DNA from: a phage
Sequence record: PZ445428.1
Direction: 5' to 3' (one strand)
Length of the DNA: 64,000 nt
The notes under the pieces: generated by a model
Told to the model about the DNA's origin: nothing
What the model saw: the letters and a program-made list of their open reading frames with translations, nothing else
Databases searched by the model: none
Made by a program: the position numbers and the translations under genes
Shown: positions 40,185 through 52,273 of the stretch, one piece after another
How positions within the stretch are numbered: the stretch's first letter is position 1
Layout: each line of letters starts with the position of its first letter

Positions 40185-40190
40185 ATTTAT

Positions 40191-40219
40191 TTGCTAAATA
40201 ACTTGAATTTCTATATAAT
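40191..40219 (+). promoter_or_regulatory. sigma70 early promoter
   Basis: TTGCTAaataacttgaatttctaTATAAT then ATAAATTTGAGAGAGGAAG. Confidence 0.6.
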
Positions 40220-40249
40220 ATACTTATAAATTTGAGAGAGGAAGCAAAT

Positions 40250-41314: not shown

Positions 41315-41984
41315 TTATCTTGTAAATGACTTTAAAAACTGGAAACCTCTGGAATATCTGTGGCTGTTCATTGCAGTGGCCTTCATTAGTTTGGCTAACT
41401 ATAATGGTACAGCACTAGATTGGGCAACAGCAATCACCAACGTTGTTTGTGTTATTCTGGTTGCAAAGGGGCGTGTTTCTAACTATGTCTGGGGTTTGGT
41501 AGGTGTTCTGACCTACGGAATTACAGCTCTAAATGCTGATCTTTATGGTAACGCAGCGCTAAACCTGTTGTACTACGTCCCTATGCAGTTCTACGGAATG
41601 TACTTGTGGCATAAAAATAAGCCAAGTAATCTGCCGGATGTTCCAACTAAAGTTCTGACAAAAGCTCAAGCTTTGCTGACTCTAGGGATTTTAGCAGTAG
41701 CAACATTAGGTTATGGTAGTTTCCTTGCTACTACGGCTGATCCATTCCCAATGTTAGACGCATTTACCGCGGTTGGCAGTGTGATTGCTATGTGGCTTAT
41801 GGTTAAGCAGTATGCTGAACAGTGGCTGATCTGGATTGCCATTAACTTTGGTACTGTGTACATCTGGCTTGTAACTGCCCAATCTACGGGTGCATCTTAC
41901 GCAATCCTGGCAATGTGGCTGGTATTCTTAGGTAACTCTATTATGGGAGCCTATAAAGGCTACTTTGTAAGAGTTAACAAGTAA
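41307..41984 (+). CDS. pnuC: nicotinamide riboside transporter PnuC
   Basis: Multi-TM protein; DAFTAVGSVIAMWLMVKQYAEQWLIWIAINFGTVYIWL matches the PnuC conserved core. Confidence 0.8.
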   Translation: MTNYLVNDFKNWKPLEYLWLFIAVAFISLANYNGTALDWATAITNVVCVILVAKGRVSNYVWGLVGVLTYGITALNADLYGNAALNLLYYVPMQFYGMYLWHKNKPSNLPDVPTKVLTKAQALLTLGILAVATLGYGSFLATTADPFPMLDAFTAVGSVIAMWLMVKQYAEQWLIWIAINFGTVYIWLVTAQSTGASYAILAMWLVFLGNSIMGAYKGYFVRVNK

Positions 41985-41993
41985 TTGAATTTA

Positions 41994-42014
41994 TAGCCCT
42001 CTACCTGAGGGCTA
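41994..42014 (+). terminator. hairpin after pnuC
   Basis: AGCCCTC-tacct-GAGGGCT with a weak T-run. Confidence 0.4.
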
Positions 42015-42033
42015 TTATACAGAAAATTTCACT

Positions 42034-42061
42034 TGCTAATTGCCGAAATTTTCTGTATAAT
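42034..42061 (+). promoter_or_regulatory. sigma70 promoter driving tRNAs
   Basis: TTGCTAattgccgaaattttctgTATAAT; tRNA-Ser starts about 15 nt downstream. Confidence 0.6.
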
Positions 42062-42075
42062 ATATTCATAAATTC

Positions 42076-42169
42076 GGAAGATTAACCCTAAAGGTAAGGG
42101 AGTTGTTTGCTAAACAACCAGTAGCTGTGGAGACACGGTGTATCAGTTCGAGTCTGGTATCTTCCTCCA
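42076..42169 (+). tRNA. tRNA-Ser (GCT)
   Basis: Acceptor GGAAGAT/ATCTTCC, anticodon loop TTGCTAA, long variable arm, T-arm ATCAG-TTCGAGT-CTGGT, CCA. Confidence 0.8.
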
Positions 42170-42176
42170 AATTCAT

Positions 42177-42254
42177 GGTTCCTTAGCTCAATCAGGTTAG
42201 AGCATTCCCCTCATAAGGGACAGGTTCTCGGATCATACCCGAGAGGAGCCACCA
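42177..42254 (+). tRNA. tRNA with CAT anticodon (Met or Ile2)
   Basis: Acceptor GGTTCCT/AGGAGCC, D-arm GCTC...GAGC, loop CTCATAA, atypical T-loop ATCATAC, CCA. Confidence 0.65.
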
Positions 42255-42271
42255 ATTAACTAGGAGACTTT

Positions 42272-42460
42272 ATGTCTAAATTCCAAGAACTAATGAGAGA
42301 GTTGGGTGAGCATCGCTGCAAGGATTGTTATGGGTCTGGAGAGCAAAACGATGCAGAGCCTGGAGATACTCGATTCAATAAGTGGACTTGTCCTACCTGC
42401 GAAGGTACAGGTATCAACCCTCTTTACACTATTTCTATCTACGTGGGAATTGCTAAATAA
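42272..42460 (+). CDS. zinc-ribbon small protein
   Basis: CKDCYGSG...CPTCEGTG; 62 aa. Confidence 0.45.
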   Translation: MSKFQELMRELGEHRCKDCYGSGEQNDAEPGDTRFNKWTCPTCEGTGINPLYTISIYVGIAK

Positions 42461-42798
42461 TGGATATTTTTACTACTCCAGCAGTCAACCTTTTAGGTGT
42501 AGGTCTGTTCCAAGCTACCATCTATCGTACTGATGATTCTACTGATGTGGTAATGTTCATCGTACCTGAATTCTTCCTAGAAAAGTTCTTTGAAGAGTTT
42601 GAGCAGTTCCGTGAAGAACATAATGCTCACTCCGATATGGAAGATCTAGCAGCTATGTTCCCTGCAGTTTACGGCTATATCTTTGAAAGTAATGGTCTGG
42701 ATCTTAATAAATCTGAGCTGGTCGAACTTAATTGGGGAATTAGTTTTGAAGTTGGCTCTCCATTCCCCCGATACTTCCAGGGTTTAGAGATCCGCTAA
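42460..42798 (+). CDS. hypothetical protein
   Basis: 112-aa ORF. Confidence 0.5.
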   Translation: MDIFTTPAVNLLGVGLFQATIYRTDDSTDVVMFIVPEFFLEKFFEEFEQFREEHNAHSDMEDLAAMFPAVYGYIFESNGLDLNKSELVELNWGISFEVGSPFPRYFQGLEIR

Positions 42799-42806
42799 GA
42801 TTACAT

Positions 42807-42883
42807 GGGGGTGTAATCGAATTGGCATAGGTACTGGACTTAAAATTCAGGTTTTGTGGGTTCGAATCCCACCACCCCTACCA
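42807..42883 (+). tRNA. tRNA with TAA anticodon (Leu by anticodon, short variable arm)
   Basis: Acceptor GGGGGTG/CACCCCT, loop CTTAAAA, T-arm GTGGG-TTCGAAT-CCCAC, CCA. Confidence 0.6.
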
Positions 42884-42900
42884 AATAAAAGGAAACTGAT

Positions 42901-43068
42901 ATGTATCAGAGACCGTCACCACCAGCTCGAAGATCAAGAGAAACTCTTTTGATGGAGTTGGCGAAAAACTTCAAGGCTAAACTTGAAGACGATAATTTTA
43001 CTACAGATGAAGATATTGACTTCATTTGCAAACTATTAAAAATGAAATTGGAGAAAAAACATGGCTAA
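42901..43068 (+). CDS. hypothetical small protein (55 aa, not in ORF track)
   Basis: ATG after AAAGGAAA; MYQRPSPPARRSRETLL... Confidence 0.35.
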   Translation: MYQRPSPPARRSRETLLMELAKNFKAKLEDDNFTTDEDIDFICKLLKMKLEKKHG

Positions 43069-43267
43069 TCCAGAAGTAGTTACACAGCGTTTGCTGATTA
43101 AAGGTGTAGTAGCTGAAGCAGGTCTTACCGAAGCTGTTGCAGATTTTCAGGCACAGTTCACAGCTATTCTCACCCAAGCTAAAGAAACTGGTGCGGAGGA
43201 GTATGCTGCTGCAACTCTAGCGCTCACGTTAGCTGGACTTGATCTGGCAGAAGAAGCCGGAGTTTAA
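43061..43267 (+). CDS. hypothetical protein
   Basis: 68-aa ORF. Confidence 0.4.
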   Translation: MANPEVVTQRLLIKGVVAEAGLTEAVADFQAQFTAILTQAKETGAEEYAAATLALTLAGLDLAEEAGV

Positions 43268-43297
43268 CTCCTCCAAGCAGAAATTTTAAAAATGTAC

Positions 43298-43327
43298 TTG
43301 CTTTTTACTTAAGATTTCTGCTATAAT
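43298..43327 (+). promoter_or_regulatory. sigma70 early promoter
   Basis: TTGCTT-18 nt-TATAAT. Confidence 0.55.
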
Positions 43328-43356
43328 AGTTATATAAATTGATGAGAGGAATCAGA

Positions 43357-43632
43357 ATGTCAAAACGTGTTACAGCAACTGGTATTGAAAGCTCAGTATG
43401 TAAATCCTGGGGTGGTTGGGAAGGTGAGATTGAATGGCTTTATTTCTACAATGTAGAACTTCTGCCTGAAATTAAAGCCCACTGTATCGAAGCTGGTATG
43501 TCTCCTGATGCTAAAGCAGATATCGAAATTACTATGACTAAACTAGAAGGTCGTGTAATTACTGTTAGTGATGAAGGTGAAGAGGTCTTCGAACTTCCAT
43601 TCACCTTGAAAGTCACTCCTTCGTTTGATTAA
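43357..43632 (+). CDS. hypothetical protein
   Basis: Start moved to ATG after GAGAGGAATCAGA. Confidence 0.5.
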   Translation: MSKRVTATGIESSVCKSWGGWEGEIEWLYFYNVELLPEIKAHCIEAGMSPDAKADIEITMTKLEGRVITVSDEGEEVFELPFTLKVTPSFD

Positions 43633-43640
43633 CTGATACA

Positions 43641-43679
43641 GCACTGAGCAAGTTCTTTAAAATTTGACTTGCTCAGTGC
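43641..43679 (+). terminator. 12-bp perfect inverted repeat overlapping the next promoter -35
   Basis: GCACTGAGCAAG...CTTGCTCAGTGC; the 3' arm contains the TTGCTC -35 element. Confidence 0.45.
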
Positions 43680-43698
43680 CTTAAAACTTGATATAATA
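43669..43698 (+). promoter_or_regulatory. sigma70 promoter driving a small RNA and tRNAs
   Basis: TTGCTCagtgccttaaaacttgaTATAAT. Confidence 0.55.
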
Positions 43699-43721
43699 GT
43701 TATCTAATTTGGAAAACATAT

Positions 43722-43820
43722 CTGAATGAGAAGTAACTAAGCGAGTTGCTTTGAGGGGTAAGGTCAGGATAGCCTGAAATATTCCACCTTGAGTTTAACC
43801 GACTTACTTTTCATTCAAAT
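43722..43820 (+). ncRNA. candidate about 100-nt structured RNA upstream of tRNA-Tyr
   Basis: Terminal stem GAATGAGAAGTAA...TTACTTTTCATTC enclosing about 75 nt; no ORF. Confidence 0.3.
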
Positions 43821-43902
43821 ATGTTGGATTAGTATCGTAGAGGTAGCGAAGCAGACTGTAAATCTGCCGACTCGGAAGGGTCTCGGGTGGTTCGACTCCA
43901 TC
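43812..43902 (+). tRNA. tRNA-Tyr (GTA)
   Basis: Acceptor GTTGGAT/ATCCAAC, anticodon arm GCAGA-CTGTAAA-TCTGC, long variable arm, CCA. Confidence 0.75.
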
Positions 43903-43921
43903 ATCCAACACCAAATTTAAT

Positions 43922-43996
43922 GCACCTATCGTCTATCGGTTAGGACATCAGGTTTTCAACCTGAGAAGCTCGGTTCGATTCCGTGTGGGTGTACCA
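43922..43996 (+). tRNA. tRNA-Glu (TTC)
   Basis: Acceptor GCACCTA/TGGGTGT, anticodon arm TCAGG-TTTTCAA-CCTGA, CCA. Confidence 0.7.
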
Positions 43997-44003
43997 AATT
44001 AAT

Positions 44004-44080
44004 GTTCTGCTAGACAAACAGGTAAAGTCCCTACCCTTTCAAGGTAGGGTTTGCGGGTTCGATCCCCGCACAGAACGCCA
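44004..44080 (+). tRNA. tRNA with TTC anticodon (second Glu-type)
   Basis: Anticodon arm CTACC-CTTTCAA-GGTAG, T-arm GCGGG-TTCGATC-CCCGC, CCA. Confidence 0.6.
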
Positions 44081-44088
44081 TATTCTGC

Positions 44089-44165
44089 ATTCCTAGAGTG
44101 TTACTGGACAGCATGTCGGTCTCCAAAACCGTACGGTCTAGGTTCGAGTCCTAGTAGGTTTGCCA
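44089..44165 (+). tRNA. tRNA-Trp (CCA), acceptor stem with U-U mismatches
   Basis: Anticodon loop CTCCAAA, T-arm CTAGG-TTCGAGT-CCTAG, CCA. Confidence 0.55.
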
Positions 44166-44171
44166 ATATTT

Positions 44172-44246
44172 GCACCTTTAGCTGAGATGGATTAGCGCTT
44201 GCCTGAAGAGCTTGAGAGGTTGGATCGTTACCAACGGGGTGCACCA
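44172..44246 (+). tRNA. tRNA-Phe (GAA)
   Basis: Acceptor GCACCTT/GGGGTGC, D-arm GCTG...TAGC, loop CTGAAGA, CCA. Confidence 0.6.
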
Positions 44247-44263
44247 ATTTGAAGGAGATGCTG

Positions 44264-44536
44264 ATGCATCCTGAAAACTTCTTTATATACTGTACTAGTC
44301 CTTTGCTTAAACGCCGGATTAATAAAGTATATCACTACAGAGCTAGTCAACAGCCTTATATTTATGATTCTAGTGGAGATCACATTCCACTTGAGCAACT
44401 AGGGACTGATTATATGGTTTTGAAGCACTTTAATGAGGCAAAGATCTCAAGCGTTCATAACCGACAAAACTCTAAAACGTGGTGGTATAAGAAGCGTAAG
44501 AAAGGCATCAAATTTCTGAAAAATGTAGTTGCTTAA
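44264..44536 (+). CDS. hypothetical protein
   Basis: Start moved to ATG 6 nt after AAGGAG; the track start is TTG. Confidence 0.45.
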   Translation: MHPENFFIYCTSPLLKRRINKVYHYRASQQPYIYDSSGDHIPLEQLGTDYMVLKHFNEAKISSVHNRQNSKTWWYKKRKKGIKFLKNVVA

Positions 44537-44585
44537 ATCCTTAAAGTTCTGTATAATTATTACATAAATTGAACTGGAGAACTAG

Positions 44586-44774
44586 ATGAAAGCACCTAAA
44601 CCGAAATTAGTTAAGTTCGACTGCTGTGACACTGAAATCTTATTTACTAAGTTTGGTGAATTTAAGATGTGTGAATGTGGAACATGTGGTTACGATCATG
44701 GTGATGGATATTATTGCAGAACCCTCGGGCCTTCTGAACTAATCCACTTCTCATGGCCGGAAAGTAAAGAATAA
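44586..44774 (+). CDS. Cys-rich small protein
   Basis: FDCCDTE...CECGTCGYDHGDGYYC; 62 aa. Confidence 0.45.
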   Translation: MKAPKPKLVKFDCCDTEILFTKFGEFKMCECGTCGYDHGDGYYCRTLGPSELIHFSWPESKE

Positions 44775-44776
44775 TA

Positions 44777-44852
44777 CGACCGTTGGCTGAATGGCTTAGG
44801 CGGGGGCCTGCAAAACCTCCTTATGTGAGTTCGAATCTCATGCGGTCGTCCA
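44777..44852 (+). tRNA. tRNA-Cys (GCA)
   Basis: Acceptor CGACCGT/GCGGTCG, loop CTGCAAA, T-arm GTGAG-TTCGAAT-CTCAT, CCA. Confidence 0.65.
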
Positions 44853-44859
44853 AATTTAT

Positions 44860-44942
44860 GGGTCGTTAGCCAAGCGGTTTGGCGGTGGACTGTTAATCCA
44901 TGTCGAAAGACAACGTAGGTTCGAATCCTGCACGGCCCGCCA
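44860..44942 (+). tRNA. tRNA with GTT anticodon (Asn) and extended variable arm
   Basis: Anticodon arm GTGGA-CTGTTAA-TCCAT, extra arm GTCGAAAGAC, T-arm GTAGG-TTCGAAT-CCTGC, CCA. Confidence 0.6.
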
Positions 44943-44970
44943 TTTTTCACTAAAAACTGAGGAAATAGAT

Positions 44971-45156
44971 ATGACAACTCATGCAATTGCTCGACTAGAA
45001 GCTGATCGCGATAGTATTAAGAACAATATTAAAGTTCGTGATCAAATCATTAAGGTTTTAAAGGCAGAACTGCTTGAAGAACTTCAACATCAAGTAGATC
45101 GTCGTGAGTCTTTAAAAGAAGTCGAGGAAGCTCTGTCTAAACTCAAAGCTGAATAA
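44971..45156 (+). CDS. hypothetical coiled-coil protein
   Basis: 61-aa ORF. Confidence 0.4.
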   Translation: MTTHAIARLEADRDSIKNNIKVRDQIIKVLKAELLEELQHQVDRRESLKEVEEALSKLKAE

Positions 45157-45165
45157 ACAAATTAT

Positions 45166-45242
45166 GCGATCGGGGCTGGCTTGGTAATGGTACTCCCCTG
45201 TCACGGGAGAGAATGTGGGTTCGAATCCCATCGGTCGCGCCA
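45166..45242 (+). tRNA. tRNA-Asp (GTC)
   Basis: Acceptor GCGATCG/CGGTCGC, anticodon arm CTCCC-CTGTCAC-GGGAG, CCA. Confidence 0.8.
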
Positions 45243-45248
45243 AATTAT

Positions 45249-45324
45249 ACATCCATAGCTCAATGGTTAGAGCTACCGCCTCTTAAGCGGAGGGTTCTAG
45301 GTTCAAGTCCTAGTGGGTGTACCA
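45249..45324 (+). tRNA. tRNA-Lys (CTT)
   Basis: Acceptor ACATCCA/TGGGTGT, D-arm GCTC...GAGC, loop CTCTTAA, T-arm CTAGG-TTCAAGT-CCTAG, CCA. Confidence 0.65.
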
Positions 45325-45329
45325 AATAC

Positions 45330-45668
45330 TGGGGTCTTAGCTAATCGGTTAAGCGTCATGGATAGCGGTGAATTCCGGCCTATGAAGGGAGTAACACGTA
45401 GTCTCCCAGACTCCACCAAATTTCAGTGCAGAACACGGAGCTAGCAATTCGGAAGTGCTGACGCGCGATAAGCTGCCTATGTACTTGCAAAGCGGACGTG
45501 TCCTAGACTCGGACTCTTGCACTGAAACCAATTAAACATTCTAGCGTGGTGGAGAGGGGACACCAGCTTGCCGAGGGTAGAAGCTCGTTCGATTCGAGTG
45601 AAAGAATGGTTCTCGTAAATCCGCACAAGTGATAGTAGGTTCAAGTCCTGCCTAGATTGACTTATTAT
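45330..45668 (+). ncRNA. cluster of tRNA-like / structured RNA elements, non-canonical
   Basis: Acceptor-like stems with encoded CCA (GGGGTCT...AGACTCCACCA; TTCAGTG...CACTGAAACCA) and T-arm-like motifs, but no canonical cloverleaf by hand folding. Confidence 0.35.
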
Positions 45669-45742
45669 GCGTCCATAGTTAAAAGGTATAATTTCTGGTT
45701 GCCAACCAGATGTTGAGAGTTCGATTCTCTCTGGCCGCACCA
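45669..45742 (+). tRNA. tRNA-Gly (GCC)
   Basis: Anticodon arm TCTGG-TTGCCAA-CCAGA, T-arm GAGAG-TTCGATT-CTCTC, CCA. Confidence 0.75.
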
Positions 45743-46050
45743 AATTTAGGTTTATGCTTCCTAGAGAACGTACTCCTAAATAAACAAGGCGATGAGTTTC
45801 CGGCCGGTTCTAGTCGCTGAAAATCCTCCCGACCAGGTAGGTGTAGGTAAACGAAAGTTTACTTATTAAGTAAGTCCGACACATCGGCGGGTGTGTTCTA
45901 GTATTTAAAGAAGGTCTCGCAAACTTTCTCGCTAGCATGAGTTCATAGCTCGGTGACTTACCTAATAAGTAAATTTATTAAAAATGTAATTGCTATTTAG
46001 CTTAATTCTCTGTATAATATATTTTATAAAGTGATGAGAAGGAAAGCAAA

Positions 46051-46209
46051 GTGAAATTAAAAATTGCAGATGTACTTATGTGTACTTGGGTAATTCCAAT
46101 CATAATTGTTGGTTTTAACGCAGATATACTTTCCACAGCGTGGAAGATTGTAGGGCTAAGTACAGGGTTCACAATGCTAGGGTTAAGCATGTTGTGGACG
46201 AAAAACTAA
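46051..46209 (+). CDS. hypothetical small hydrophobic peptide (GTG start)
   Basis: 52 codons after promoter and GAGAAGGAAAG; not in ORF track. Confidence 0.3.
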   Translation: MKLKIADVLMCTWVIPIIIVGFNADILSTAWKIVGLSTGFTMLGLSMLWTKN

Positions 46210-46213
46210 TATT

Positions 46214-46290
46214 CTCCGATTAGCTCAATTGGCTAGAGTACACCGTTTGGGGTGGTGGGGTTGAAGGTTCGAGTCCTTCATTGGAGACCA
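46214..46290 (+). tRNA. tRNA-Pro (TGG)
   Basis: Acceptor CTCCGAT/ATTGGAG, anticodon arm CACCG-TTTGGGG-TGGTG, T-arm GAAGG-TTCGAGT-CCTTC, CCA. Confidence 0.8.
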
Positions 46291-46305
46291 AATAAGAGGT
46301 TAATA

Positions 46306-46458
46306 ATGCGTCATTTAAATAGGCAAAAAACAAAAGCACCTAAAAGGTTTAAGACTTGGTGCGGTTGTGATAGAGAACTCGTTTCTCTAGGAGAGAAATG
46401 TTCTGTTTGTGGTGTACGCTTTGTTAAGTTCAAACAAAGATTTAAATTTGCGAGTTAG
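46306..46458 (+). CDS. zinc-ribbon small protein
   Basis: 50 aa, CGCDRE...CSVCG; its 3' end overlaps the 5' end of the next tRNA. Confidence 0.35.
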   Translation: MRHLNRQKTKAPKRFKTWCGCDRELVSLGEKCSVCGVRFVKFKQRFKFAS

Positions 46459-46526
46459 ATCTCTGGTAGAGATCACTAGTCTCATAAGCTAGTAAGAGGT
46501 CGGTTCGATTCCGACACTCGCATCCA
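46449..46526 (+). tRNA. tRNA with CAT anticodon (Met or Ile2)
   Basis: Acceptor TGCGAGT/ACTCGCA, D-arm GATC...GATC, anticodon arm CTAGT-CTCATAA-GCTAG, CCA. Confidence 0.75.
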
Positions 46527-46537
46527 AAAAGTATTAA

Positions 46538-46615
46538 GGGTTGCTAGCTCAACTGGTTTAGAGCACTGGTCTTTTAAACCATAGGTTACAGGTTCGAGTC
46601 CTGTGCAACCCACCA
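46538..46615 (+). tRNA. tRNA-Lys (TTT)
   Basis: Acceptor GGGTTGC/GCAACCC, loop CTTTTAA, T-arm ACAGG-TTCGAGT-CCTGT, CCA. Confidence 0.75.
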
Positions 46616-46619
46616 AATT

Positions 46620-46693
46620 GCTCGGTTAGTTTAATGGGAGAACCCCGTCTTTACACGGCGGTTGCGATAGTTCGATTCTATCACCGAGTACCA
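46620..46693 (+). tRNA. tRNA-Val (TAC)
   Basis: Anticodon arm CCGTC-TTTACAC-GGCGG, T-arm GATAG-TTCGATT-CTATC, CCA. Confidence 0.7.
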
Positions 46694-46717
46694 CTTAACT
46701 AAAATAAGGAATTGCAA

Positions 46718-47077
46718 ATGCAATTATCATCTAAAGTTCAAGGTTTCTTCACACATGCAACAGCAGAATTTGCTATTAGCAAGGGTTGGGACTTTGAGCA
46801 AGAACTTTCTGAGTTCTATAAAGATATAGATATGAATACACCATACATGGCCTTAGCTTCTGGACAAGAGTTCTCAGAAGGTGATCTTTTCAAGGCAAGT
46901 CAAGGCGAGGTAACGCCTGGTTTTGCCGCTTTTTGGAGTGGCTTCACAATTAAAGAAGAAGCTCCAGATGATGATGTATTTATGCAAAGCATGCACTCTG
47001 GGAGTTCTGATATGTTATTCGTTAAAGATGTACGACATATCCAAGAAGTGGTAAAAACGTATTTGCAAAATGCTTAA
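46718..47077 (+). CDS. hypothetical protein
   Basis: Start moved to ATG 7 nt after TAAGGA. Confidence 0.5.
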   Translation: MQLSSKVQGFFTHATAEFAISKGWDFEQELSEFYKDIDMNTPYMALASGQEFSEGDLFKASQGEVTPGFAAFWSGFTIKEEAPDDDVFMQSMHSGSSDMLFVKDVRHIQEVVKTYLQNA

Positions 47078-47331
47078 TTTCTTGTTATAATATTTATATA
47101 AATTGATGGGGAGAAATCCTCATCAAAGTTCACTAAGGTATTAGCTCGACCTAGGACTGGCTGCCACCAAGCACGATCCCTACGACTCGGGAGAAGTTCT
47201 AGATTAGTCCACTAGATTCAGCGGCAACTGAATAGTGTATCGGGTTTGTGAAGAGCGGGTATCCAAGCCTGGCTAATGGCACTGGGTATTACGCACACCG
47301 AGCTAATAGCCTTAGTAAACTTGAAGAATTT

Positions 47332-47406
47332 GGGCGAATAGTGTCAGCGGGAGCACACCAGACTTGCAATCTGGTAGGGAGGGTTCGAGTCCCTCTTTGT
47401 CCACCA
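47332..47406 (+). tRNA. tRNA-Ala (TGC)
   Basis: Acceptor GGGCGAA/TTTGTCC, anticodon arm CCAGA-CTTGCAA-TCTGG, T-arm GAGGG-TTCGAGT-CCCTC, CCA. Confidence 0.75.
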
Positions 47407-47412
47407 AATTTT

Positions 47413-47488
47413 GGGGTCATAGGTTATTTGGTTAAACTTACTGCCTTGCAAGCAGTAGAACTCAGTTCAATTCTGAGTGACTCCACCA
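47413..47488 (+). tRNA. tRNA with TGC anticodon (second Ala-type)
   Basis: Acceptor GGGGTCA/TGACTCC, anticodon arm ACTGC-CTTGCAA-GCAGT, T-arm CTCAG-TTCAATT-CTGAG, CCA. Confidence 0.6.
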
Positions 47489-47507
47489 AACAAATTAAGG
47501 AAATAAT

Positions 47508-47726
47508 ATGGTATTCTTAGCAGCCTCTGTAGTTCTTGCATCTTTAGCGTTAGCTATCTATTTTAGAACTGCTAAAGATTTATCTAAAGAAAAGAAAACT
47601 TTCTTTACTGATTACTCTTGGGGTGCTCCATACGCTATCAATTCTATCAGTCTAGAAGCTATGTTGATAATGGTATTCAGTGGTATAGGTTCTATCGTTG
47701 CTGGATTACTTTTTATTTCTAACTAA
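47508..47726 (+). CDS. hypothetical small membrane protein
   Basis: 72 aa, two hydrophobic segments; AAGGAAA upstream. Confidence 0.45.
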   Translation: MVFLAASVVLASLALAIYFRTAKDLSKEKKTFFTDYSWGAPYAINSISLEAMLIMVFSGIGSIVAGLLFISN

Positions 47727-47733
47727 ACAAAAT

Positions 47734-47814
47734 GGGGATGTGGCGAAATTGGCAGACGCGCTAGATTTAGGTTCTAGTCTTCGGGTGTGGGTTCGAGTCC
47801 CTCCATCCCTACCA
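47734..47814 (+). tRNA. tRNA-Leu (TAG)
   Basis: Acceptor GGGGATG/CATCCCT, anticodon arm CTAGA-TTTAGGT-TCTAG, extended variable arm, CCA. Confidence 0.7.
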
Positions 47815-47834
47815 TTTTAAAATAGGATTAATTA

Positions 47835-47999
47835 ATGTTAAAGATGCCAGTAAAACATATTTGGTTAGCTAGAAATAGGGCTACTAATGAATTTGTCTTT
47901 ATTGATACAGGAATGACATATGATCAACGAATATATGATCTTCTGTATTCCGTGTCTGCTGAAGAAGTACACAAATTAATTCTAAAAGATGCAACATAA
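47835..47999 (+). CDS. hypothetical small protein (54 aa, not in ORF track)
   Basis: ATG after TAGGA; the minus-strand track ORFs here overlap tRNAs and are rejected. Confidence 0.3.
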   Translation: MLKMPVKHIWLARNRATNEFVFIDTGMTYDQRIYDLLYSVSAEEVHKLILKDAT

Positions 48000-48001
48000 T
48001 T

Positions 48002-48094
48002 GGAAGAGCAAATCGACTTGGTGACGAAAACCGCTTGGAAAGTGGCTGACTTGTGAAAGCAGGCTTGAGAGTTCGAATCTCTCTTCTTCCGCCA
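48002..48094 (+). tRNA. class II tRNA, probably Ser (GGA)
   Basis: Acceptor GGAAGAG/TTCTTCC, candidate loop TTGGAAA, long variable arm, T-arm GAGAG-TTCGAAT-CTCTC, CCA; anticodon arm is imperfect. Confidence 0.5.
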
Positions 48095-48101
48095 AACAAT
48101 T

Positions 48102-48191
48102 GGAAGTACGGGCGTAGTGGTATGCAACTAGTCTTGAAAACTAGCCCGCTGTAGCGATATGGTGATGGTTCGACTCCATGTGCTTCCGCCA
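48102..48191 (+). tRNA. tRNA-Ser (TGA)
   Basis: Acceptor GGAAGTA/TGCTTCC, anticodon arm CTAGT-CTTGAAA-ACTAG, long variable arm, CCA. Confidence 0.7.
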
Positions 48192-48196
48192 AATCT

Positions 48197-48327
48197 TGGA
48201 ATATGCCGGAATTGGTAGACGGGACTGCCGAATAGGTTTACTAGGAACATCCACTCCTAGAAATATACCTTAAAAGCGGTTGAGTTAAATGGTCTAACTC
48301 GTGAAGGTTCAAGTCCTTCTATTCCTT
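48197..48327 (+). ncRNA. tRNA-like element, about 131 nt, non-canonical
   Basis: Perfect T-arm GAAGG-TTCAAGT-CCTTC and acceptor-like TGGAATA/TATTCCT, but no CCA and no canonical anticodon arm. Confidence 0.35.
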
Positions 48328-48434
48328 GATACATCAATGGCTCAAAGAGTAACGGTGCACCTTTCTAGAGAATTTCCTGGGCGAGAATCCAGGTGTAATC
48401 AACTAGTCGTTAGTGTGATGAGTTTCGGAGAGCC

Positions 48435-48581
48435 GCCACAATTGAAGATCATTGTCTGTTTGAGTCTACCATTTAGGGTCGTTACTTGTAGCGCCTATCT
48501 GCTAGGTCTAATCACTAGGTAAAGGCATGCAAGCTTCTAGTGTAGAGAGTTCGCTACTCCTCGATGGTTTTCAATTGTGGC
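48435..48581 (+). ncRNA. candidate structured RNA closed by a 12-bp long-range stem
   Basis: GCCACAATTGAA (48435-48446) pairs perfectly with TTCAATTGTGGC (48570-48581); the 3' arm overlaps the tRNA-His 5' end. Confidence 0.3.
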
Positions 48582-48653
48582 TATATCATAATTGGTTAAT
48601 GATCCTGATTGTGAATCAGGCCTATGTGGATTCGAGTTCCACTAGCCACCCCA
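48577..48653 (+). tRNA. tRNA-His (GTG)
   Basis: Acceptor GTGGCTA/TAGCCAC, D-arm TCAT...ATGA, anticodon arm CCTGA-TTGTGAA-TCAGG, CCA. Confidence 0.8.
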
Positions 48654-48659
48654 AATATT

Positions 48660-48734
48660 GCGTCCTTATTTCAACGGAAAGAATGTAAAGCTACGAACTT
48701 TACGATCGGGGTTCGATTCCCTGAGGATGCACCA
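48660..48734 (+). tRNA. tRNA-Arg (ACG)
   Basis: Acceptor GCGTCCT/AGGATGC, anticodon arm TAAAG-CTACGAA-CTTTA, T-arm CGGGG-TTCGATT-CCCTG, CCA. Confidence 0.8.
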
Positions 48735-48758
48735 ATTAACTTAAACAGGAAAATAATA

Positions 48759-48959
48759 ATGGCTGATTTCTGTAAAGAATGCTCTATCGATATGTGGGGC
48801 AAAGATACACAAGATCTTTCTGGTCTTATCACTGAAGCTGAAGTTAAAGAAGGCTATGGTGCTGTAGTAATCTGCGAAGGTTGTGGTATTATCCGTGTTG
48901 ATCATGAAGGCAAACGCCTTGAAGAACCTGAGCCAATCGCAACGGTTCCTGTAGAGTAA
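48759..48959 (+). CDS. zinc-ribbon small protein
   Basis: MADFCKECSID...CEGCG; start moved to ATG after AGGAAA. Confidence 0.45.
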   Translation: MADFCKECSIDMWGKDTQDLSGLITEAEVKEGYGAVVICEGCGIIRVDHEGKRLEEPEPIATVPVE

Positions 48960-48967
48960 CAAATTAT

Positions 48968-49043
48968 TGGGATGTAGATCAATTGGCAGATCGTCGGCCT
49001 CTGACTCCGAAGGTTCCTGGTTCGATCCCAGGCATCCCAGCCA
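48968..49043 (+). tRNA. tRNA-Gln (CTG)
   Basis: Acceptor TGGGATG/CATCCCA, D-arm GATC...GATC, loop CTCTGAC, T-arm CCTGG-TTCGATC-CCAGG, CCA. Confidence 0.7.
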
Positions 49044-49050
49044 AACAATT

Positions 49051-49125
49051 GGAGAATAGTGTAGTGGTTCGCACAACGGCCTTTGACTCCGTTAGTGGTA
49101 GGTTCAATTCCTCCTTCTCCTGCCA
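49051..49125 (+). tRNA. tRNA-Gln (TTG)
   Basis: Acceptor GGAGAAT/TTCTCCT, loop CTTTGAC, T-loop TTCAATT, CCA. Confidence 0.65.
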
Positions 49126-49131
49126 ATTTAT

Positions 49132-49206
49132 GCGTGATTAGTTCAGTGGCTAGAATAACTGGCTTCCAACCAGTAGACACGAGTTCGACTCTCGTATCCC
49201 GCACCA
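49132..49206 (+). tRNA. tRNA-Gly (TCC)
   Basis: Anticodon arm ACTGG-CTTCCAA-CCAGT, T-arm ACGAG-TTCGACT-CTCGT, CCA. Confidence 0.75.
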
Positions 49207-49220
49207 AATAAGGAAACGTT

Positions 49221-49442
49221 ATGCACGTTTTTGAGTTTCGTAATAAAAGCCCCAATAGACGCGTTTTGATTATTGGTGAAACATATCGAGCTTACGAGCA
49301 AGAAGATGGTTCAGTTTTACTAAACGATGAAAAGCAAGGTTATAGCTTTCATCCAGAAGAAACGTATGAAGAGTTTCGTACTAAGTTTCTTTTACCAGAC
49401 TGGCTAGCAGTAGCCGAGCAACGAGAATCCGAAGATGGCTGA
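49221..49442 (+). CDS. hypothetical protein
   Basis: 73-aa ORF after AAGGAAA. Confidence 0.45.
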   Translation: MHVFEFRNKSPNRRVLIIGETYRAYEQEDGSVLLNDEKQGYSFHPEETYEEFRTKFLLPDWLAVAEQRESEDG

Positions 49443-49599
49443 TAACCTGAAACTAAAGGTTGACAAACAGAAGAAACGTGTAGAGATTGAGCTTGGTGAC
49501 GAACGCCTAGCACTATCCTTCGAGTTTCTTCAGCAGTTGGCGATGACAGTAATGTCTGATAAGTCTCCTGTATTTGAAAAAGAAATCCCGTTGAAATGA
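49435..49599 (+). CDS. hypothetical small protein (54 aa, not in ORF track)
   Basis: ATG overlapping the upstream stop; MADNLKLKVDKQKK... Confidence 0.35.
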   Translation: MADNLKLKVDKQKKRVEIELGDERLALSFEFLQQLAMTVMSDKSPVFEKEIPLK

Positions 49600-49609
49600 C
49601 GGGTTTATT

Positions 49610-49684
49610 GCTCCTAAAGCATTGCTGGCGATGCAGTTGCCTTGTAAGCATCTGAACCGGGTTCGATTCCTGGTGGGAGCACCA
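49610..49684 (+). tRNA. tRNA-Thr (TGT)
   Basis: Acceptor GCTCCTA/TGGGAGC, D-arm GCAT...ATGC, loop CTTGTAA, T-arm CCGGG-TTCGATT-CCTGG, CCA. Confidence 0.75.
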
Positions 49685-49758
49685 AATTTAAAAATTCATT
49701 TGCCTTCTCTCTTATTTCTTGTTATAATATTTATATAAATTAATGAGAGGGAAACCAA

Positions 49759-50052
49759 ATGAAACGTTATCTTTCTGTCGTGTTCCAAACTGGTGGTCAG
49801 CGTTATACCTACGAATTTCCAGAGTCTTGGAAAATCAAAGAAGGTGATCAGGTTGTTGTACTGACACCGCGTGAAGGCTTCAAAGTGGTTACGGTTAAAC
49901 AAGTATTTCCTAAAGATCACGAACCATCTAAATCTATTAATTATAAGATGATTCATGGTCTGGTACGAAAAGTACCACGGACGGAAGTTGAAGTAGATAA
50001 AGATGGTGAAGCTAAATACCAGTATACTTCTTACCTAGACGAGATGCGATAA
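49759..50052 (+). CDS. hypothetical protein
   Basis: 97-aa ORF after promoter and GAGAGGGAAACC. Confidence 0.5.
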   Translation: MKRYLSVVFQTGGQRYTYEFPESWKIKEGDQVVVLTPREGFKVVTVKQVFPKDHEPSKSINYKMIHGLVRKVPRTEVEVDKDGEAKYQYTSYLDEMR

Positions 50053-50276
50053 TGAGAATTACCTTTACTGAGAAGATAATATGTAATGGGATTATGATCA
50101 TTACAGCGTGGGAAGGTAAACAATGGTGCAGTATAACGGGTCTTAAAGCAGAAGATCAAACACCAGAAAACATTCTCAAAATAAAACAAAACATGGCAAA
50201 ACATGCTAAACGTCCTGGTGCTCCTAGGAATGGCATACGTTTTGCAGCAAAATGCTCCGATAGTTCAAACGGTTAG
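50052..50276 (+). CDS. hypothetical protein; 3' end overlaps tRNA-Ile
   Basis: 74-aa ORF; last 7 codons overlap the tRNA 5' half. Confidence 0.4.
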   Translation: MRITFTEKIICNGIMIITAWEGKQWCSITGLKAEDQTPENILKIKQNMAKHAKRPGAPRNGIRFAAKCSDSSNG

Positions 50277-50329
50277 AACAGGCGACCGATAATCGTCAAA
50301 TCTTGGTTCGATCCCAAGTTGGAGTACCA
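50254..50329 (+). tRNA. tRNA-Ile (GAT)
   Basis: Acceptor GCTCCGA/TTGGAGT, D-arm GTTC...GAAC, anticodon arm GGCGA-CCGATAA-TCGTC, T-arm CTTGG-TTCGATC-CCAAG, CCA. Confidence 0.75.
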
Positions 50330-50373
50330 AAACAACGGAGAGTCACTACCGTAAGTGTGAAGTTGAAAAATAT

Positions 50374-50449
50374 AGTTAGTTGGCAGATCGGTTATGCACC
50401 TCCTTCATACGGAGCGATCAGAGTGGTTCGATTCCACTACTAACTACCA
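50374..50449 (+). tRNA. tRNA with CAT anticodon (third CAT tRNA)
   Basis: Acceptor AGTTAGT/ACTAACT, loop TTCATAC, T-arm AGTGG-TTCGATT-CCACT, CCA. Confidence 0.7.
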
Positions 50450-50818
50450 AACAGAAGATCAGGCCATAGTGCCAGATCCTGCTGAGAAGAGAGTCCACAT
50501 TCTATAAATGGACGGGCGTGACAGCAGGAAGTAGACTGCAACTCGATGCTATCTAAGAGTATAAATGTAGAAGCTAAGACTTTAGATAGTCATTGTCTTA
50601 GCGTGAGTAATCACGTAGTTGCAACAGACCAGGAAGATCGCAACGTTAAAATCAAAGCTCCTGTGCTTTTCTTCTTAATCGAGACCATCAATCTCACCGG
50701 AATGCTAGCACCCCAACAGTAGCTAGTGATTAAGAGAAAAGCAAACCTGCCTTCCAGTTTTTATCTTGCTTCTGGGTTATCAAAAAGCTGAGCCAATTTC
50801 TAACATCAGGGAGATCTA

Positions 50819-51187
50819 ATGAAAGCATATCAAAGTCTTAAATCCGGCGTAATTAACCTTGTTCATGACAATCAGATCATTCAGCTATACTCTAAAGACG
50901 GCGAACTTAAACAGAAAGTTCTAGTTGAAGATCTAGAAGGTATCACACCTCACTTTGATCCTGAAGCCTTCCGCATCGTGGATGTTAAAGTAGTTCCTCA
51001 AGTCGAGGGTGGTCAACACCTAAATGTCAACGTATTAAGTCGTGATCAGCTTTTGGATGCTCAGAAACATCCTGAAAAATATCCTCAGTTGACCATTCGT
51101 GTCTCTGGTTATGCTGTTCGATTTAATGCACTGACGCGTGAACAACAGAACGACGTTATTAGTCGTACATTTACTCAGGCGATCTAA
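50819..51187 (+). CDS. grcA: autonomous glycyl-radical cofactor (GrcA/YfiD-like)
   Basis: [12 protein letters not shown]...[37 protein letters not shown] is near-identical in pattern to E. coli GrcA, including the RVSGY glycyl-radical motif. Confidence 0.8.
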
Positions 51188-51268
51188 TGGGGTTTGGATA
51201 CGATTTCTCCCAGCTACGCAAGGTAGTCGAGCAAACTCCATTTATCTCCGAAGTTTTAGGAGAACTTA

Positions 51269-51568
51269 GTGGACAGAGCATTAAGACGTCACCACCGTCA
51301 ACGTGTCAAGAACAATCGCAAGAAGTATTGGACAGTCTTCCCTCATGAAGAAAGTCCTAAACGGTTAGGTATTATTACTACCACTCCTTGTATTTGCTCT
51401 TGCTGGATGTGTGGCAACCCACGCAAATACTATAAAAATAGTAAAGCAGCAATGAAAATCTCGGAGATTAAAAAGATGGATTCAGGATATAATGAAATCA
51501 CGTTTACAGGTGGTATCTCTGATGAGTTCGATGGTTTTGTATCACAAGACGTTATCGAAATTATCTAA
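51269..51568 (+). CDS. minimal radical-SAM activase, NrdG-like
   Basis: GTG start; FPHEESPKRLGIITTTPCICSCWMCGNP carries a CxxxCxxC cluster and aligns with the NrdG N-terminus; TFTGGISDEF resembles the SGGDP region. Confidence 0.5.
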   Translation: MDRALRRHHRQRVKNNRKKYWTVFPHEESPKRLGIITTTPCICSCWMCGNPRKYYKNSKAAMKISEIKKMDSGYNEITFTGGISDEFDGFVSQDVIEII

Positions 51569-51634
51569 TTAAATAACAAACCCCGGCTATTGAATAAGTA
51601 GTTGGGGTTTTCTTATATACACAGGATTTTCAAA

Positions 51635-51820
51635 ATGAAAATTTTTAAAGTGAACTACCGTGGACTATGGTTAGGTGGTACAGCTATTGTTGTTGCGGAA
51701 ACTGCGGAAAAAGCAATCGAACTGGCTAGAAACCATAGATCTTCTATAGAGTTTGAAGGTGTGACAGTAGAAGAACTCCCTAGCAGTGGGGTAGTATACA
51801 ACGATAACGGGAATTACTGA
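51635..51820 (+). CDS. hypothetical protein
   Basis: 61 aa from an internal Met. Confidence 0.4.
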   Translation: MKIFKVNYRGLWLGGTAIVVAETAEKAIELARNHRSSIEFEGVTVEELPSSGVVYNDNGNY

Positions 51821-51877
51821 TGTTATATTTTAAAGTTCGACCACATTAAGTTAATTCACAGACTTAATGGAGAAAAT

Positions 51878-52273
51878 ATGAGCCGTACTTATCGCAAACA
51901 ATCTGGAAATCATTACTGGCGTGACAAACATCGTTGCACTTATAACTTCCACAGCACTAATGTGCGTATTCCCTATGTTTACACAGATCGTGAAGGTAAA
52001 CAGTGGAAATACTACAAAGTTCGCTCTAATGAAGCATGGGCTATGTCTTGGGATGAAGTTGATGCAGAAATTCAGGAAGGCATCCTGAATAACGAAAAGA
52101 AAGATGGTCACTGGTGGGATTCTATCAACCAGAGTGTTAAATGGCACTCTAACAAAATGGTTCGACAGGGAAATCGCCGTGAGTTACATCGTGTAATGAA
52201 AGATCCAGAAAATTACGACTACAATCGAGATCACGACCTTCGTAAGAAAGGCATCTGGTGGATCTACGACTAA
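51878..52273 (+). CDS. hypothetical protein
   Basis: 131-aa ORF, Trp/His-rich. Confidence 0.5.
   Translation: MSRTYRKQSGNHYWRDKHRCTYNFHSTNVRIPYVYTDREGKQWKYYKVRSNEAWAMSWDEVDAEIQEGILNNEKKDGHWWDSINQSVKWHSNKMVRQGNRRELHRVMKDPENYDYNRDHDLRKKGIWWIYD

What the first reader, a model, noticed from the sequence alone, without database searches (positions are those of the whole stretch)
48435..48653. 12-bp long-range helix whose 3' arm overlaps the tRNA-His acceptor 5' strand
GCCACAATTGAA (48435-48446) is perfectly complementary to TTCAATTGTGGC (48570-48581), closing a roughly 150-nt domain. The last 5 nt of the 3' arm are the first 5 nt of tRNA-His, so the two structures are mutually exclusive, suggesting a processing or maturation switch.
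Basis: seen in the sequence. Interest (0 to 1): 0.45.

Follow-up and report, generated by a model that had tools for sequence, protein, structure and literature searches.

The report
Conserved RNA processing stem before tRNA-His
The reported 12-bp pairing is the outer part of a conserved 20-bp RNA helix in T5-like phages that brackets a small stable RNA lying between another stable RNA and tRNA-His, and it most likely serves as a double-strand-specific (RNase III-type) cutting site that separates the three RNAs.

Summary
GCCACAATTGAA (48435-48446) pairs perfectly with TTCAATTGTGGC (48570-48581), whose last 5 nt are tRNA-His G1-C5. The pairing extends to 20 bp with three G-U pairs (48435-48454 / 48562-48581).

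The window is Escherichia phage TrudiGerster, a T5-like phage. In T5 and DT57C the same locus is annotated RNA I, RNA III ('stable RNA with unknown functions'), tRNA-His. The helix joins the CCA end and trailer of the RNA I homologue to the leader and 5' end of tRNA-His. It encloses an RNA III-like element.

Across 15 distinct arm pairs from four Demerecviridae lineages:
- 97.7% of cells are paired.
- 13 of 20 pairs changed on both sides.
- G-U outnumbers A-C 27 to 2.
- The enclosed cargo ranges from a bare GCAA-capped hairpin to about 135 nt.

The RNA III ends annotated in T5 lie inside the helix and leave a 2-nt 3' overhang, which is RNase III geometry.

Verdict: a real, conserved, RNA-level processing stem. 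RNase III is inferred, not shown. A regulated 'switch' is not supported. This is a new member of a known kind, of moderate interest. One twist is that T5-like tRNA-His genes all carry T, not G, at -1.

The parts
48435..48454 (+). 5' arm of the 20-bp helix (GCCACAATTGAAGATCATTG). It consists of the discriminator G and CCA of the RNA I-like gene, the 4-nt trailer CAAT, and the first 12 nt of the RNA III-like element.
   Evidence: (I6); covariation
48562..48581 (+). 3' arm of the 20-bp helix (CGATGGTTTTCAATTGTGGC). It consists of the last 14 nt of the RNA III-like element, U-1, and G1-C5 of tRNA-His.
48339..48438 (+). RNA I-like stable RNA gene (GGCTC...GAGCC-G-CCA), the short 100-nt sequence type. 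It is the homologue of T5 RNA I (107 nt).
   Evidence: T5 and DT57C annotation. The alignment has 1-nt and 7-nt indels and compensatory hairpin changes. Conserved in 206 phage records.
48439..48442 (+). CAAU trailer between the RNA I-like CCA end and the predicted cut (CAAU^UG).
   Evidence: By analogy with the 4-nt gap between RNA I and RNA III in the T5 and DT57C annotations; inferred for this phage.
48443..48575 (+). RNA III-like element (133 nt), the cargo enclosed by the helix. It has a cloverleaf-like fold: a terminal stem plus three arms at 48463-48509, 48513-48542 and 48544-48561 (loop TTCGCTA). The ends are placed by analogy with T5 RNA III.
   Evidence: Consensus fold with 18 of 44 covarying pairs. 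Fold of the excised RNA gives a 12-bp stem with a 2-nt 3' overhang. No Rfam match. The interior is found in only about 15 phage records.
48576..48576 (+). T at position -1 of tRNA-His, where bacterial genes encode G-1. T5 and DT57C annotate tRNA-His as 78 nt including this U.
48577..48653 (+). tRNA-His (GTG) with encoded C73 and CCA. G1-C5 are shared with the helix.
48195..48338 (+). Context: RNA1-like element immediately upstream of the RNA I-like gene. It resembles a tRNA-Leu, with a D-arm, a roughly 50-nt insertion and a T-arm.
   Evidence: T5 misc_RNA 'RNA1'; weak Rfam tRNA hit at 48259-48327

Best explanation
The helix is a conserved RNA-level processing stem in the polycistronic transcript of the T5-like tRNA region.

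The three genes are RNA I-like, RNA III-like and tRNA-His, separated by only 4-5 nt. The sequences around both junctions pair with each other. This gives about two turns of double-stranded RNA, with the RNA III-like element sitting at its apex.

Proposed mechanism (inferred):
1. Host RNase III makes a staggered double cut inside the helix at CAAU^UG on each strand, that is 48442/48443 and 48575/48576.
2. One event therefore releases three products: RNA I with a 4-nt trailer that exonucleases trim back to CCA, the RNA III-like RNA with a 12-bp terminal stem and a 2-nt 3' overhang, and tRNA-His carrying a single 5' extra nucleotide (U-1).
3. The remaining short outer duplex dissociates. The tRNA-His 3' strand has the same GCCAC as the 5' arm and takes over pairing with GUGGC.

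What is shown: the helix, its conservation and covariation, its RNA-strand specificity, its constant length of about 20 bp despite variable cargo, and the annotated ends in T5.

What is inferred: that the nuclease is RNase III, that the T5 ends are experimental, and that they apply to this phage.
For: 1. The helix is 20 bp with 3 G-U pairs. No helix longer than 15 bp was found at 300 random positions.

2. There are 15 distinct arm pairs from Tequintavirus, Epseptimavirus, Erwinia phage KEY, Hongcheonvirus DU_PP_V and Sugarlandvirus. In these, 97.7% of cells are paired, 13 of 20 pairs changed on both sides, 0 of 500 shuffles reached the observed values, and slid controls gave 29-42% paired.

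3. DU_PP_V has CAAGTG/CACTTG where the others have the palindrome CAATTG. The repeat is therefore inverted, not direct.

4. Non-Watson-Crick cells are G-U 27 times and A-C twice, as expected for pairing in the + strand RNA and not in DNA.

5. Helix length stays at 19-21 bp while the cargo changes: about 133 nt here, 106 nt in T5, about 63 nt in STG2, and a bare hairpin of 18 bp plus one mismatch with a GCAA tetraloop in S124-type phage L020.

6. T5 (AY692264) and DT57C annotate RNA I, RNA III and tRNA-His at this locus. The RNA III ends fall at CAAU^UG on both strands of the helix, which leaves a 2-nt 3' overhang. That is the RNase III double-cleavage pattern described in PMC6212723.

7. The spacers lie entirely within the helix, leaving no single-stranded A/U-rich spacer of the kind RNase E uses (sequence; established knowledge of E. 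coli tRNA processing).

8. RNase III is already known to take part in maturation of phage T4 tRNAs (PMC4810235, citing McClain 1979).
Against: - No experimental data for this phage were available.
- I could not retrieve the original T5 RNA I / RNA III papers, so I cannot confirm that the annotated ends were mapped on RNA. The RNA III 3' end might simply have been set next to a 78-nt tRNA-His.
- The two base pairs between the predicted cuts are A-U and U-A. In vivo E. coli RNase III sites usually have at least one G-C there (PMC6212723).
- Only 5-7 bp lie outside the predicted cuts, and about 3 bp in Sugarlandvirus, which is short for an RNase III substrate.
- Arm pairs were chosen as the best helix in each locus, which inflates the paired percentage. 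It does not affect the double changes or the G-U/A-C asymmetry.
- Many of the sequences are closely related.
Confidence: 0.6

Rival explanations
1. The helix is just the long terminal ('acceptor-like') stem of a stable tRNA-like RNA (the RNA III family), needed for that RNA's stability or function. Its extension into the RNA I CCA end and the tRNA-His 5' end is incidental, and the three RNAs are separated by RNase P, RNase E and exonucleases.
For: - The enclosed element has a cloverleaf-like consensus fold with covariation, and a T-arm-like hairpin abuts the 3' arm.
- T5 RNA III accumulates as a stable RNA (annotation).
- CCA/C and GUGG are complementary partly because both are independently constrained sequences.
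Against: - The helix is kept at about 19-20 bp even where the cargo is reduced to a tetraloop hairpin (L020).
- The spacer positions outside the mature RNA III covary: CAAGTG/CACTTG, CAATTA/TAATTG, AAATTT.
- Erwinia phage KEY lacks an RNA I CCA end yet keeps the pairing to G1-G4 of tRNA-His.
- PWKp9S keeps a 5-bp extension although the following sequence is not tRNA-His.
- The annotated T5 ends lie inside the helix, not at its ends.
Confidence: 0.2
2. This is the first reader's reading: a regulated two-state switch in which the long helix and the tRNA-His acceptor stem alternate to control whether or when tRNA-His matures.
For: The two structures share 5 nt. The model prefers the long helix by about 9 kcal/mol in the uncut RNA. 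The 5' arm GCCAC is identical to the tRNA-His 3' acceptor strand, so strand exchange is possible.
Against: - No ligand-binding or sensor element and no alternative conserved pairing was found.
- The overlap with the tRNA varies: 5, 4, 3, 2 or 0 nt.
- A cut-and-release stem explains everything without a second state.
Confidence: 0.07
3. This is a DNA-level inverted repeat that marks the boundaries of an exchangeable or mobile cassette, for example a recombination or homing target. That would explain why the interior differs between near-identical phages.
For: The interior is mosaic: the same flanks carry at least six unrelated interiors. T5-type and Trudi-type cargos cross genus boundaries. The tRNA region of T5-like phages is rich in HNH endonuclease genes.
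Against: - The G-U versus A-C asymmetry (27 to 2) is strand-specific and makes sense only for RNA.
- There is no target-site duplication: DU_PP_V shows the repeats are inverted, not direct.
- Pairing continues into interior-specific sequence with compensatory changes.
- Cassette exchange by recombination in the conserved flanks can coexist with an RNA function.
Confidence: 0.05

Closest known systems
Phage T5 stable RNAs I and III (misc_RNA rnaI and rnaIII in AY692264; 'stable RNA with unknown functions' in DT57C, NC_027356)
   Same: The locus and gene order are the same: tRNA-Ser, RNA1, RNA I, RNA III, tRNA-His. The 12 outer base pairs are identical (GCCACAATTGAA / TTCAATTGTGGC). The helix is 20 bp in both, and both have a TTCGCTA hairpin next to the 3' arm.
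   Different: The interior of the TrudiGerster element (133 nt) is not detectably similar to T5 RNA III (106 nt) by blastn. Its RNA I is the 100-nt type, not the 107-nt type. In TrudiGerster the region is annotated as a protein gene (bas27_0126), not as RNA.
RNase III processing stems that bracket stable RNAs in polycistronic precursors (16S and 23S rRNA flanking stems in E. coli rrn operons; T7 early-RNA hairpins)
   Same: Distant flanking sequences pair to give about two turns of dsRNA around an RNA that is then excised. The staggered cuts leave a 2-nt 3' overhang, and exonucleases finish the ends (PMC6212723; established knowledge).
   Different: Here the flanks are themselves the ends of two other mature RNAs, a CCA end and a tRNA 5' end. 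The cargo is small and interchangeable. RNase III dependence has not been tested.
RNase III-dependent maturation in the phage T4 tRNA cluster, which also carries two stable RNAs of unknown function (species 1 and 2)
   Same: It is a phage tRNA cluster with extra stable RNAs and a role for host RNase III (PMC4810235 citing McClain 1979; my own knowledge for species 1 and 2).
   Different: There is no sequence relationship. The T4 site is not known to me to overlap a tRNA 5' strand or a CCA end.
Bacterial tRNA-His 5' maturation (encoded G-1 paired with C73 directs RNase P to cut at -1)
   Same: The tRNA-His acceptor sequence and C73 are the same as in E. coli. T5 annotators also give an extra 5' nucleotide (PMC9976931).
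   Different: Position -1 is U in every T5-like gene examined, so the G-1:C73 pair that guides RNase P cannot form. A helix reaching into the tRNA 5' strand is present instead.

Membership tests
E. coli-type RNase III substrate | About two helical turns (about 20-22 bp) of mostly uninterrupted dsRNA | tested here: met
   There are 20 contiguous pairs including 3 G-U, and 19-21 bp in 13 of 15 relatives.
E. coli-type RNase III substrate | Staggered double cleavage leaving 2-nt 3' overhangs | tested here: inconclusive
   The RNA III ends annotated in T5 and DT57C give exactly this geometry. I could not verify that those ends were mapped experimentally, and nothing is known for this phage.
E. coli-type RNase III substrate | The two base pairs between the cuts are paired and usually include a G-C (an in vivo preference, PMC6212723) | tested here: not met
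   The pairs are A-U and U-A at the predicted site. This is a preference, not a requirement.
E. coli-type RNase III substrate | Cleavage depends on rnc; no antideterminant pairs in the proximal and distal boxes | not testable with these tools
   This needs an rnc mutant or an in vitro assay. The box rules were not evaluated.
T5 RNA III family | Lies between RNA I and tRNA-His and is closed by the GAA.../...UUC stem that continues into both flanks | tested here: met
T5 RNA III family | Sequence similarity to T5 RNA III across the interior | tested here: not met
   blastn of 48330-48580 finds the interior in only about 15 records, none of them T5. Only the stem and the TTCGCTA hairpin are shared.
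tRNA | Recognised by tRNA models (cloverleaf with 7-bp acceptor, anticodon loop, T-loop consensus) | tested here: not met
   ARAGORN and Rfam (E up to 1) give no hit in 48330-48576. The fold is cloverleaf-like, but the terminal stem is 12-20 bp.
Intrinsic terminator | GC-rich hairpin followed by a U-run | tested here: not met
   No terminator-like site lies at the helix. The only hit in the region is the T-arm of the RNA1-like element. The helix is followed directly by tRNA-His.
Mobile element with terminal inverted repeats | Inverted repeats plus a target-site duplication; symmetry maintained at the DNA level | tested here: not met
   There is no direct repeat once the palindromic spacer is broken (DU_PP_V). 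G-U outnumbers A-C by 27 to 2.
Protein-coding gene (bas27_0126, 48337-48522) | Reading frame conserved among relatives | tested here: not met
   There are 1-nt and 7-nt indels in the first 100 nt, the second half is replaced by unrelated sequence in relatives, and T5 annotates the region as RNA.

The most novel reading that the evidence does not exclude
The helix is how T5-like phages, and some other large phages carrying the same tRNA-His, give their tRNA-His its extra 5' nucleotide.

- Their genes encode U, not G, at -1, so the G-1:C73 pair that makes RNase P cut one nucleotide early cannot form.
- A double-strand-specific cut placed by the helix at -2/-1 would bypass RNase P.
- The product, pU-1-tRNA-His, would carry the 5' phosphate in the position that HisRS needs.
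- The interchangeable cargo at the helix apex (the RNA III types) would be separate, fast-evolving small RNAs riding on this processing signal, perhaps decoys against tRNA-targeting defences.
Probability: 0.25. Interest if true: 0.7.

Novelty: new member of a known kind. Interest (0 to 1): 0.42.

Why it matters
- It re-annotates a 'hypothetical protein' in TrudiGerster, and in many other T5-like genomes, as two small structured RNAs.
- It gives the 40-year-old T5 'stable RNAs of unknown function' a defined precursor architecture.
- It proposes a simple, testable processing route: one RNase III event releasing three RNAs.
- If the cut really defines the tRNA-His 5' end, it would be an RNase P-independent way to make the -1 nucleotide that histidine identity depends on.
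- The constant stem with swappable cargo points to a hot spot where these phages exchange small RNAs.

Tried and rejected
- **Rfam.** A scan of 34000-52000 at E up to 1 found nothing in 48330-48576.
- **IMG/VR pattern scans.** CCTTTCTAGAGAATTT gave mostly chance hits and 7 useful loci. The tRNA-His D-arm pattern gave many unrelated hits but about 35 T5-like loci. The RNA1 D-arm pattern added no new diversity.
- **Literature.** Searches for T5 RNA I / RNA III, RNase III in T5-like phages, and T5 tRNA-His G-1 found no paper dealing with this helix. Glukhov 2018 (PMID 29512629) is not held. Two searches failed on term length.
- **Rejected readings.** Target-site duplication, terminator, promoter and coding ORF were considered and rejected.
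- **Cut-site ruler.** I looked for a fixed distance from the presumed cut to the helix ends across lineages. It is not invariant, so the cut position cannot be extrapolated to Sugarlandvirus.
- **Not used.** Protein-homology, structure-prediction and metagenome tools were not used, because the feature is not a protein.

Full report
**Identity of the window**

blastn places the region at 100% identity in Escherichia phage TrudiGerster (MZ501108; Demerecviridae, Epseptimavirus). Window coordinate equals record coordinate minus 32480. The finding lies in the large tRNA array: ARAGORN finds 29 tRNAs, all on the + strand.

**The observation**

- GCCACAATTGAA (48435-48446) and TTCAATTGTGGC (48570-48581) are exact reverse complements.
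- tRNA-His starts at 48577 by both ARAGORN and Rfam, so the last five bases of the 3' arm are G1-C5 of the acceptor stem.
- RNAfold and the repeat finder show that the pairing continues inward to 20 contiguous pairs, 48435-48454 with 48562-48581, three of them G-U.
- The 20-bp helix is beyond chance. The same search at 300 random positions never exceeded 15 bp.
- Among 31 tRNA starts, no other tRNA has a comparable helix reaching into it.

**What the helix joins**

The T5 record from the Pushchino laboratory (AY692264) annotates, between tRNA-Ser and tRNA-His, three misc_RNAs: RNA1 (144 nt), RNA I (107 nt) and RNA III (106 nt). DT57C annotates RNA I and RNA III as 'stable RNA with unknown functions'.

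The T5 sequence reads ...GAGCCGCCA-CAAT-[TGAAAATTCG...CGAGTTTTCAAT]-TGTGGCT..., with the same outer 12 bp as in the window.

By homology the window contains:
- an RNA1-like element at 48195-48338;
- an RNA I-like gene at 48339-48438 (GGCTC...GAGCC-G-CCA);
- a 4-nt trailer;
- an RNA III-like element at 48443-48575;
- U-1 at 48576;
- tRNA-His at 48577-48653.

The 5' arm is therefore G73-CCA of RNA I, the spacer, and the start of RNA III. The 3' arm is the end of RNA III, the spacer, and the start of tRNA-His.

GenBank annotates a 61-aa CDS (bas27_0126, 48337-48522) over RNA I and half of RNA III. It is very probably spurious:
- The RNA I alignment has 1-nt and 7-nt indels and compensatory hairpin changes.
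- The second half of the ORF is replaced by unrelated sequence in close relatives.

**Conservation**

blastn shows that 48330-48450 is conserved in 206 phage records, while the interior 48450-48570 is found in only about 15. The 3' arm plus tRNA-His is conserved in about 450 records.

I fetched about 45 related loci from GenBank phages and IMG/VR. In every T5-like locus a helix of 19-21 bp ends at +2 to +5 of tRNA-His. There are two partial exceptions. L018 has one U-U mismatch within 20 positions. L020 has 14 bp, a C-U mismatch, then 4 bp capped by a GCAA tetraloop.

The enclosed cargo differs completely between otherwise near-identical phages:

| Cargo type | Approximate length |
|---|---|
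| TrudiGerster type | 133 nt |
| T5 type | 106 nt |
| STG2 type | 63 nt |
| saus176N / DU_PP_V type | 116-121 nt |
| Sugarlandvirus type | 139 nt |
| L020 minimal type | bare hairpin |

**Covariation**

I built a pseudo-alignment of 15 distinct arm pairs and counted the 20 pairs of the window helix on it:
- 97.7% of cells are standard pairs.
- 13 of 20 pairs show changes on both sides, in 50 cells.
- None of 500 shuffles reaches the observed values for paired cells, double changes or covariation score.
- Structures slid by 1-3 columns give 29-42% pairing.

Informative cases:
- DU_PP_V has CAAGTG/CACTTG where others have the palindrome CAATTG. This excludes a direct repeat or target-site duplication.
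- L020 has CAATTA/TAATTG.
- L010 versus L016 differ by C:G to U:A.
- Position 4 of the inner stem is G-U, A-U, C-G, U-G or U-A in different phages.

Non-Watson-Crick cells are G-U in 27 cases and A-C in 2. This is expected only if selection acts on the + strand RNA.

Caveats: the arms were chosen as the best helix per locus, and many sequences are related. The paired percentage is therefore inflated, but the double changes and the strand asymmetry are not produced by that choice.

**The cargo**

The TrudiGerster, KEY and Sugarlandvirus cargos align. They give a consensus fold with the terminal stem plus three arms. In the window these are 48463-48509, 48513-48542 and 48544-48561, the last with a 7-nt loop TTCGCTA directly abutting the 3' arm. 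In this fold 18 of 44 pairs covary. The cargo is thus a structured, cloverleaf-like RNA, but no tRNA model recognises it.

**Mechanism**

In the T5 and DT57C annotations the RNA III ends fall inside the helix, at CAAU^UG on both strands. In the duplex this is a stagger that leaves 2-nt 3' overhangs. That is the signature of RNase III double cleavage (PMC6212723).

Other points that fit RNase III:
- The helix keeps about two turns in all lineages, even when the cargo is only a tetraloop.
- The inter-gene spacers are entirely double-stranded, leaving no single-stranded A/U-rich RNase E site.
- RNase III already has a documented role in T4 tRNA maturation (PMC4810235).

I therefore infer that a single RNase III event releases three RNAs. 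RNA I comes out with a CAAU trailer to be trimmed to CCA. The RNA III-like RNA comes out with a 12-bp stem and an AU overhang. tRNA-His comes out with one extra 5' nucleotide.

In the uncut RNA the model favours the 20-bp helix over the tRNA acceptor stem by about 9 kcal/mol, so the tRNA-His 5' strand is probably sequestered until cleavage.

Weak points:
- I could not check that the T5 ends were determined on RNA.
- The two pairs between the cuts are A-U and U-A, whereas in vivo sites usually include a G-C.
- Only 5-7 bp lie outside the cuts.
- No terminator or promoter signal coincides with the helix.

**The tRNA-His -1 position**

All T5-like tRNA-His genes examined have T, not G, at -1. Most keep C73, and Sugarlandvirus has U73. 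T5 and DT57C annotate a 78-nt tRNA-His that starts with this U.

Related tRNA-His genes in Proteus phage Stubb and in larger unrelated contigs also have T at -1 and an upstream helix:
- Stubb: 17 bp, ending at +3.
- L095: 11 bp, ending at +4.
- L045 and L117: 11 bp, ending at -4. In L045, by inspection only, GCCA/UGGC pairing follows further out.

Four phage tRNA-His genes with an encoded G-1 have only background helices. The sample is small and not phylogenetically independent.

Bacterial histidine identity depends on G-1 and its 5' phosphate, normally encoded and kept by an unusual RNase P cut (PMC9976931). A helix-directed cut at -2/-1 would be an alternative way to make the extra nucleotide. 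I rate this as possible, not established.

**Verdict**

The RNAs are already annotated in T5, and excision of a stable RNA through a flanking RNase III stem is a known kind of mechanism. New here are the demonstration of the conserved, covarying helix across Demerecviridae, its constant length with exchangeable cargo, and its link to the U-1 tRNA-His.

Noticed in passing
window 48337-48522: The GenBank CDS bas27_0126 (61 aa, hypothetical protein) overlies the RNA I-like gene and half of the RNA III-like element. The frame is not conserved: there are 1-nt and 7-nt indels, and the second half is unrelated in relatives. It is very probably a mis-annotation. The same applies to the equivalent CDS in GreteKellenberger, STWB21, DU_PP_V and others.
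   Followed up: yes
window 48195-48338: This is an unannotated RNA1-like element, the homologue of the T5 misc_RNA 'RNA1' (144 nt). It has a tRNA-Leu-like acceptor and D-arm (GCCGGAATTGGTAGACGGG), an insertion of about 50 nt, a T-arm (GAAGGTTCAAGTCCTTC) and no encoded CCA. It gives only a weak Rfam tRNA hit (24 bits at 48259-48327).
   Followed up: partly
window 48002-48094 and 48102-48191: Two tRNA-Ser genes (GGA and TGA) annotated in GenBank are missed by ARAGORN. They appear in Rfam only as sub-threshold tRNA-Sec-like hits (25 and 38 bits).
   Followed up: no
window 48576; loci L001-L163: Every T5-like tRNA-His gene has T at -1 instead of the bacterial G-1. Sugarlandvirus tRNA-His also has U73 instead of C73. 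Phage tRNA-His genes with an encoded G-1 (L051, L056, L079) lack the upstream helix.
   Followed up: partly
window 48339-48438; alignment: RNA I exists in two sequence types that share only their ends: about 100 nt with CCTTTCTAGAGAATTT, and 107 nt as in T5. The RNA I type and the RNA III cargo type assort independently among phages. For example, smaug has T5-type RNA I with STG2-type cargo, and GreteKellenberger has the short RNA I with T5-type cargo. This indicates frequent recombination at the conserved junctions.
   Followed up: partly
window 42013-42062: A perfect 18-bp hairpin with a 14-nt loop (TATTATACAGAAAATTTC / GAAATTTTCTGTATAATA) ends 13 nt upstream of tRNA-Ser(GCT) at 42076. Its 3' arm contains an extended -10-like TGTATAAT. 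It could be a promoter or operator, or another processing hairpin.
   Followed up: no
window 43723-43736 / 43804-43817: A 14-bp helix with one G-U (TGAATGAGAAGTAA / TTACTTTTCATTCA, span 95 nt) ends about 6 nt upstream of tRNA-Tyr at 43823. It is possibly another enclosed small RNA or processing stem.
   Followed up: no
window 44172-44243: Rfam reports a tRNA (33.4 bits, above the gathering score) that ARAGORN does not list.
   Followed up: no
L005 (Klebsiella phage PWKp9S) 1156-1292: An extra segment of about 137 nt sits between the RNA III-like element and tRNA-His. Its first bases (TGGTG) still pair with the RNA I end (CACCA), so the helix is preserved although the tRNA is no longer adjacent. 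Related Sugarlandvirus contigs (L010, L016) lack the segment.
   Followed up: partly
L002 (bastian) ~620-700; L005, L160, L162, L163: Some relatives carry an additional conserved element of about 120 nt (…GAAGGGTTGCTGCTCGTGCTAACCGACG…GGGGATGAGAGACCATCCC…) immediately upstream of RNA I. TrudiGerster lacks it. In some of these loci (for example PWKp9S) it takes the place of the RNA1-like element; in bastian it follows it.
   Followed up: no
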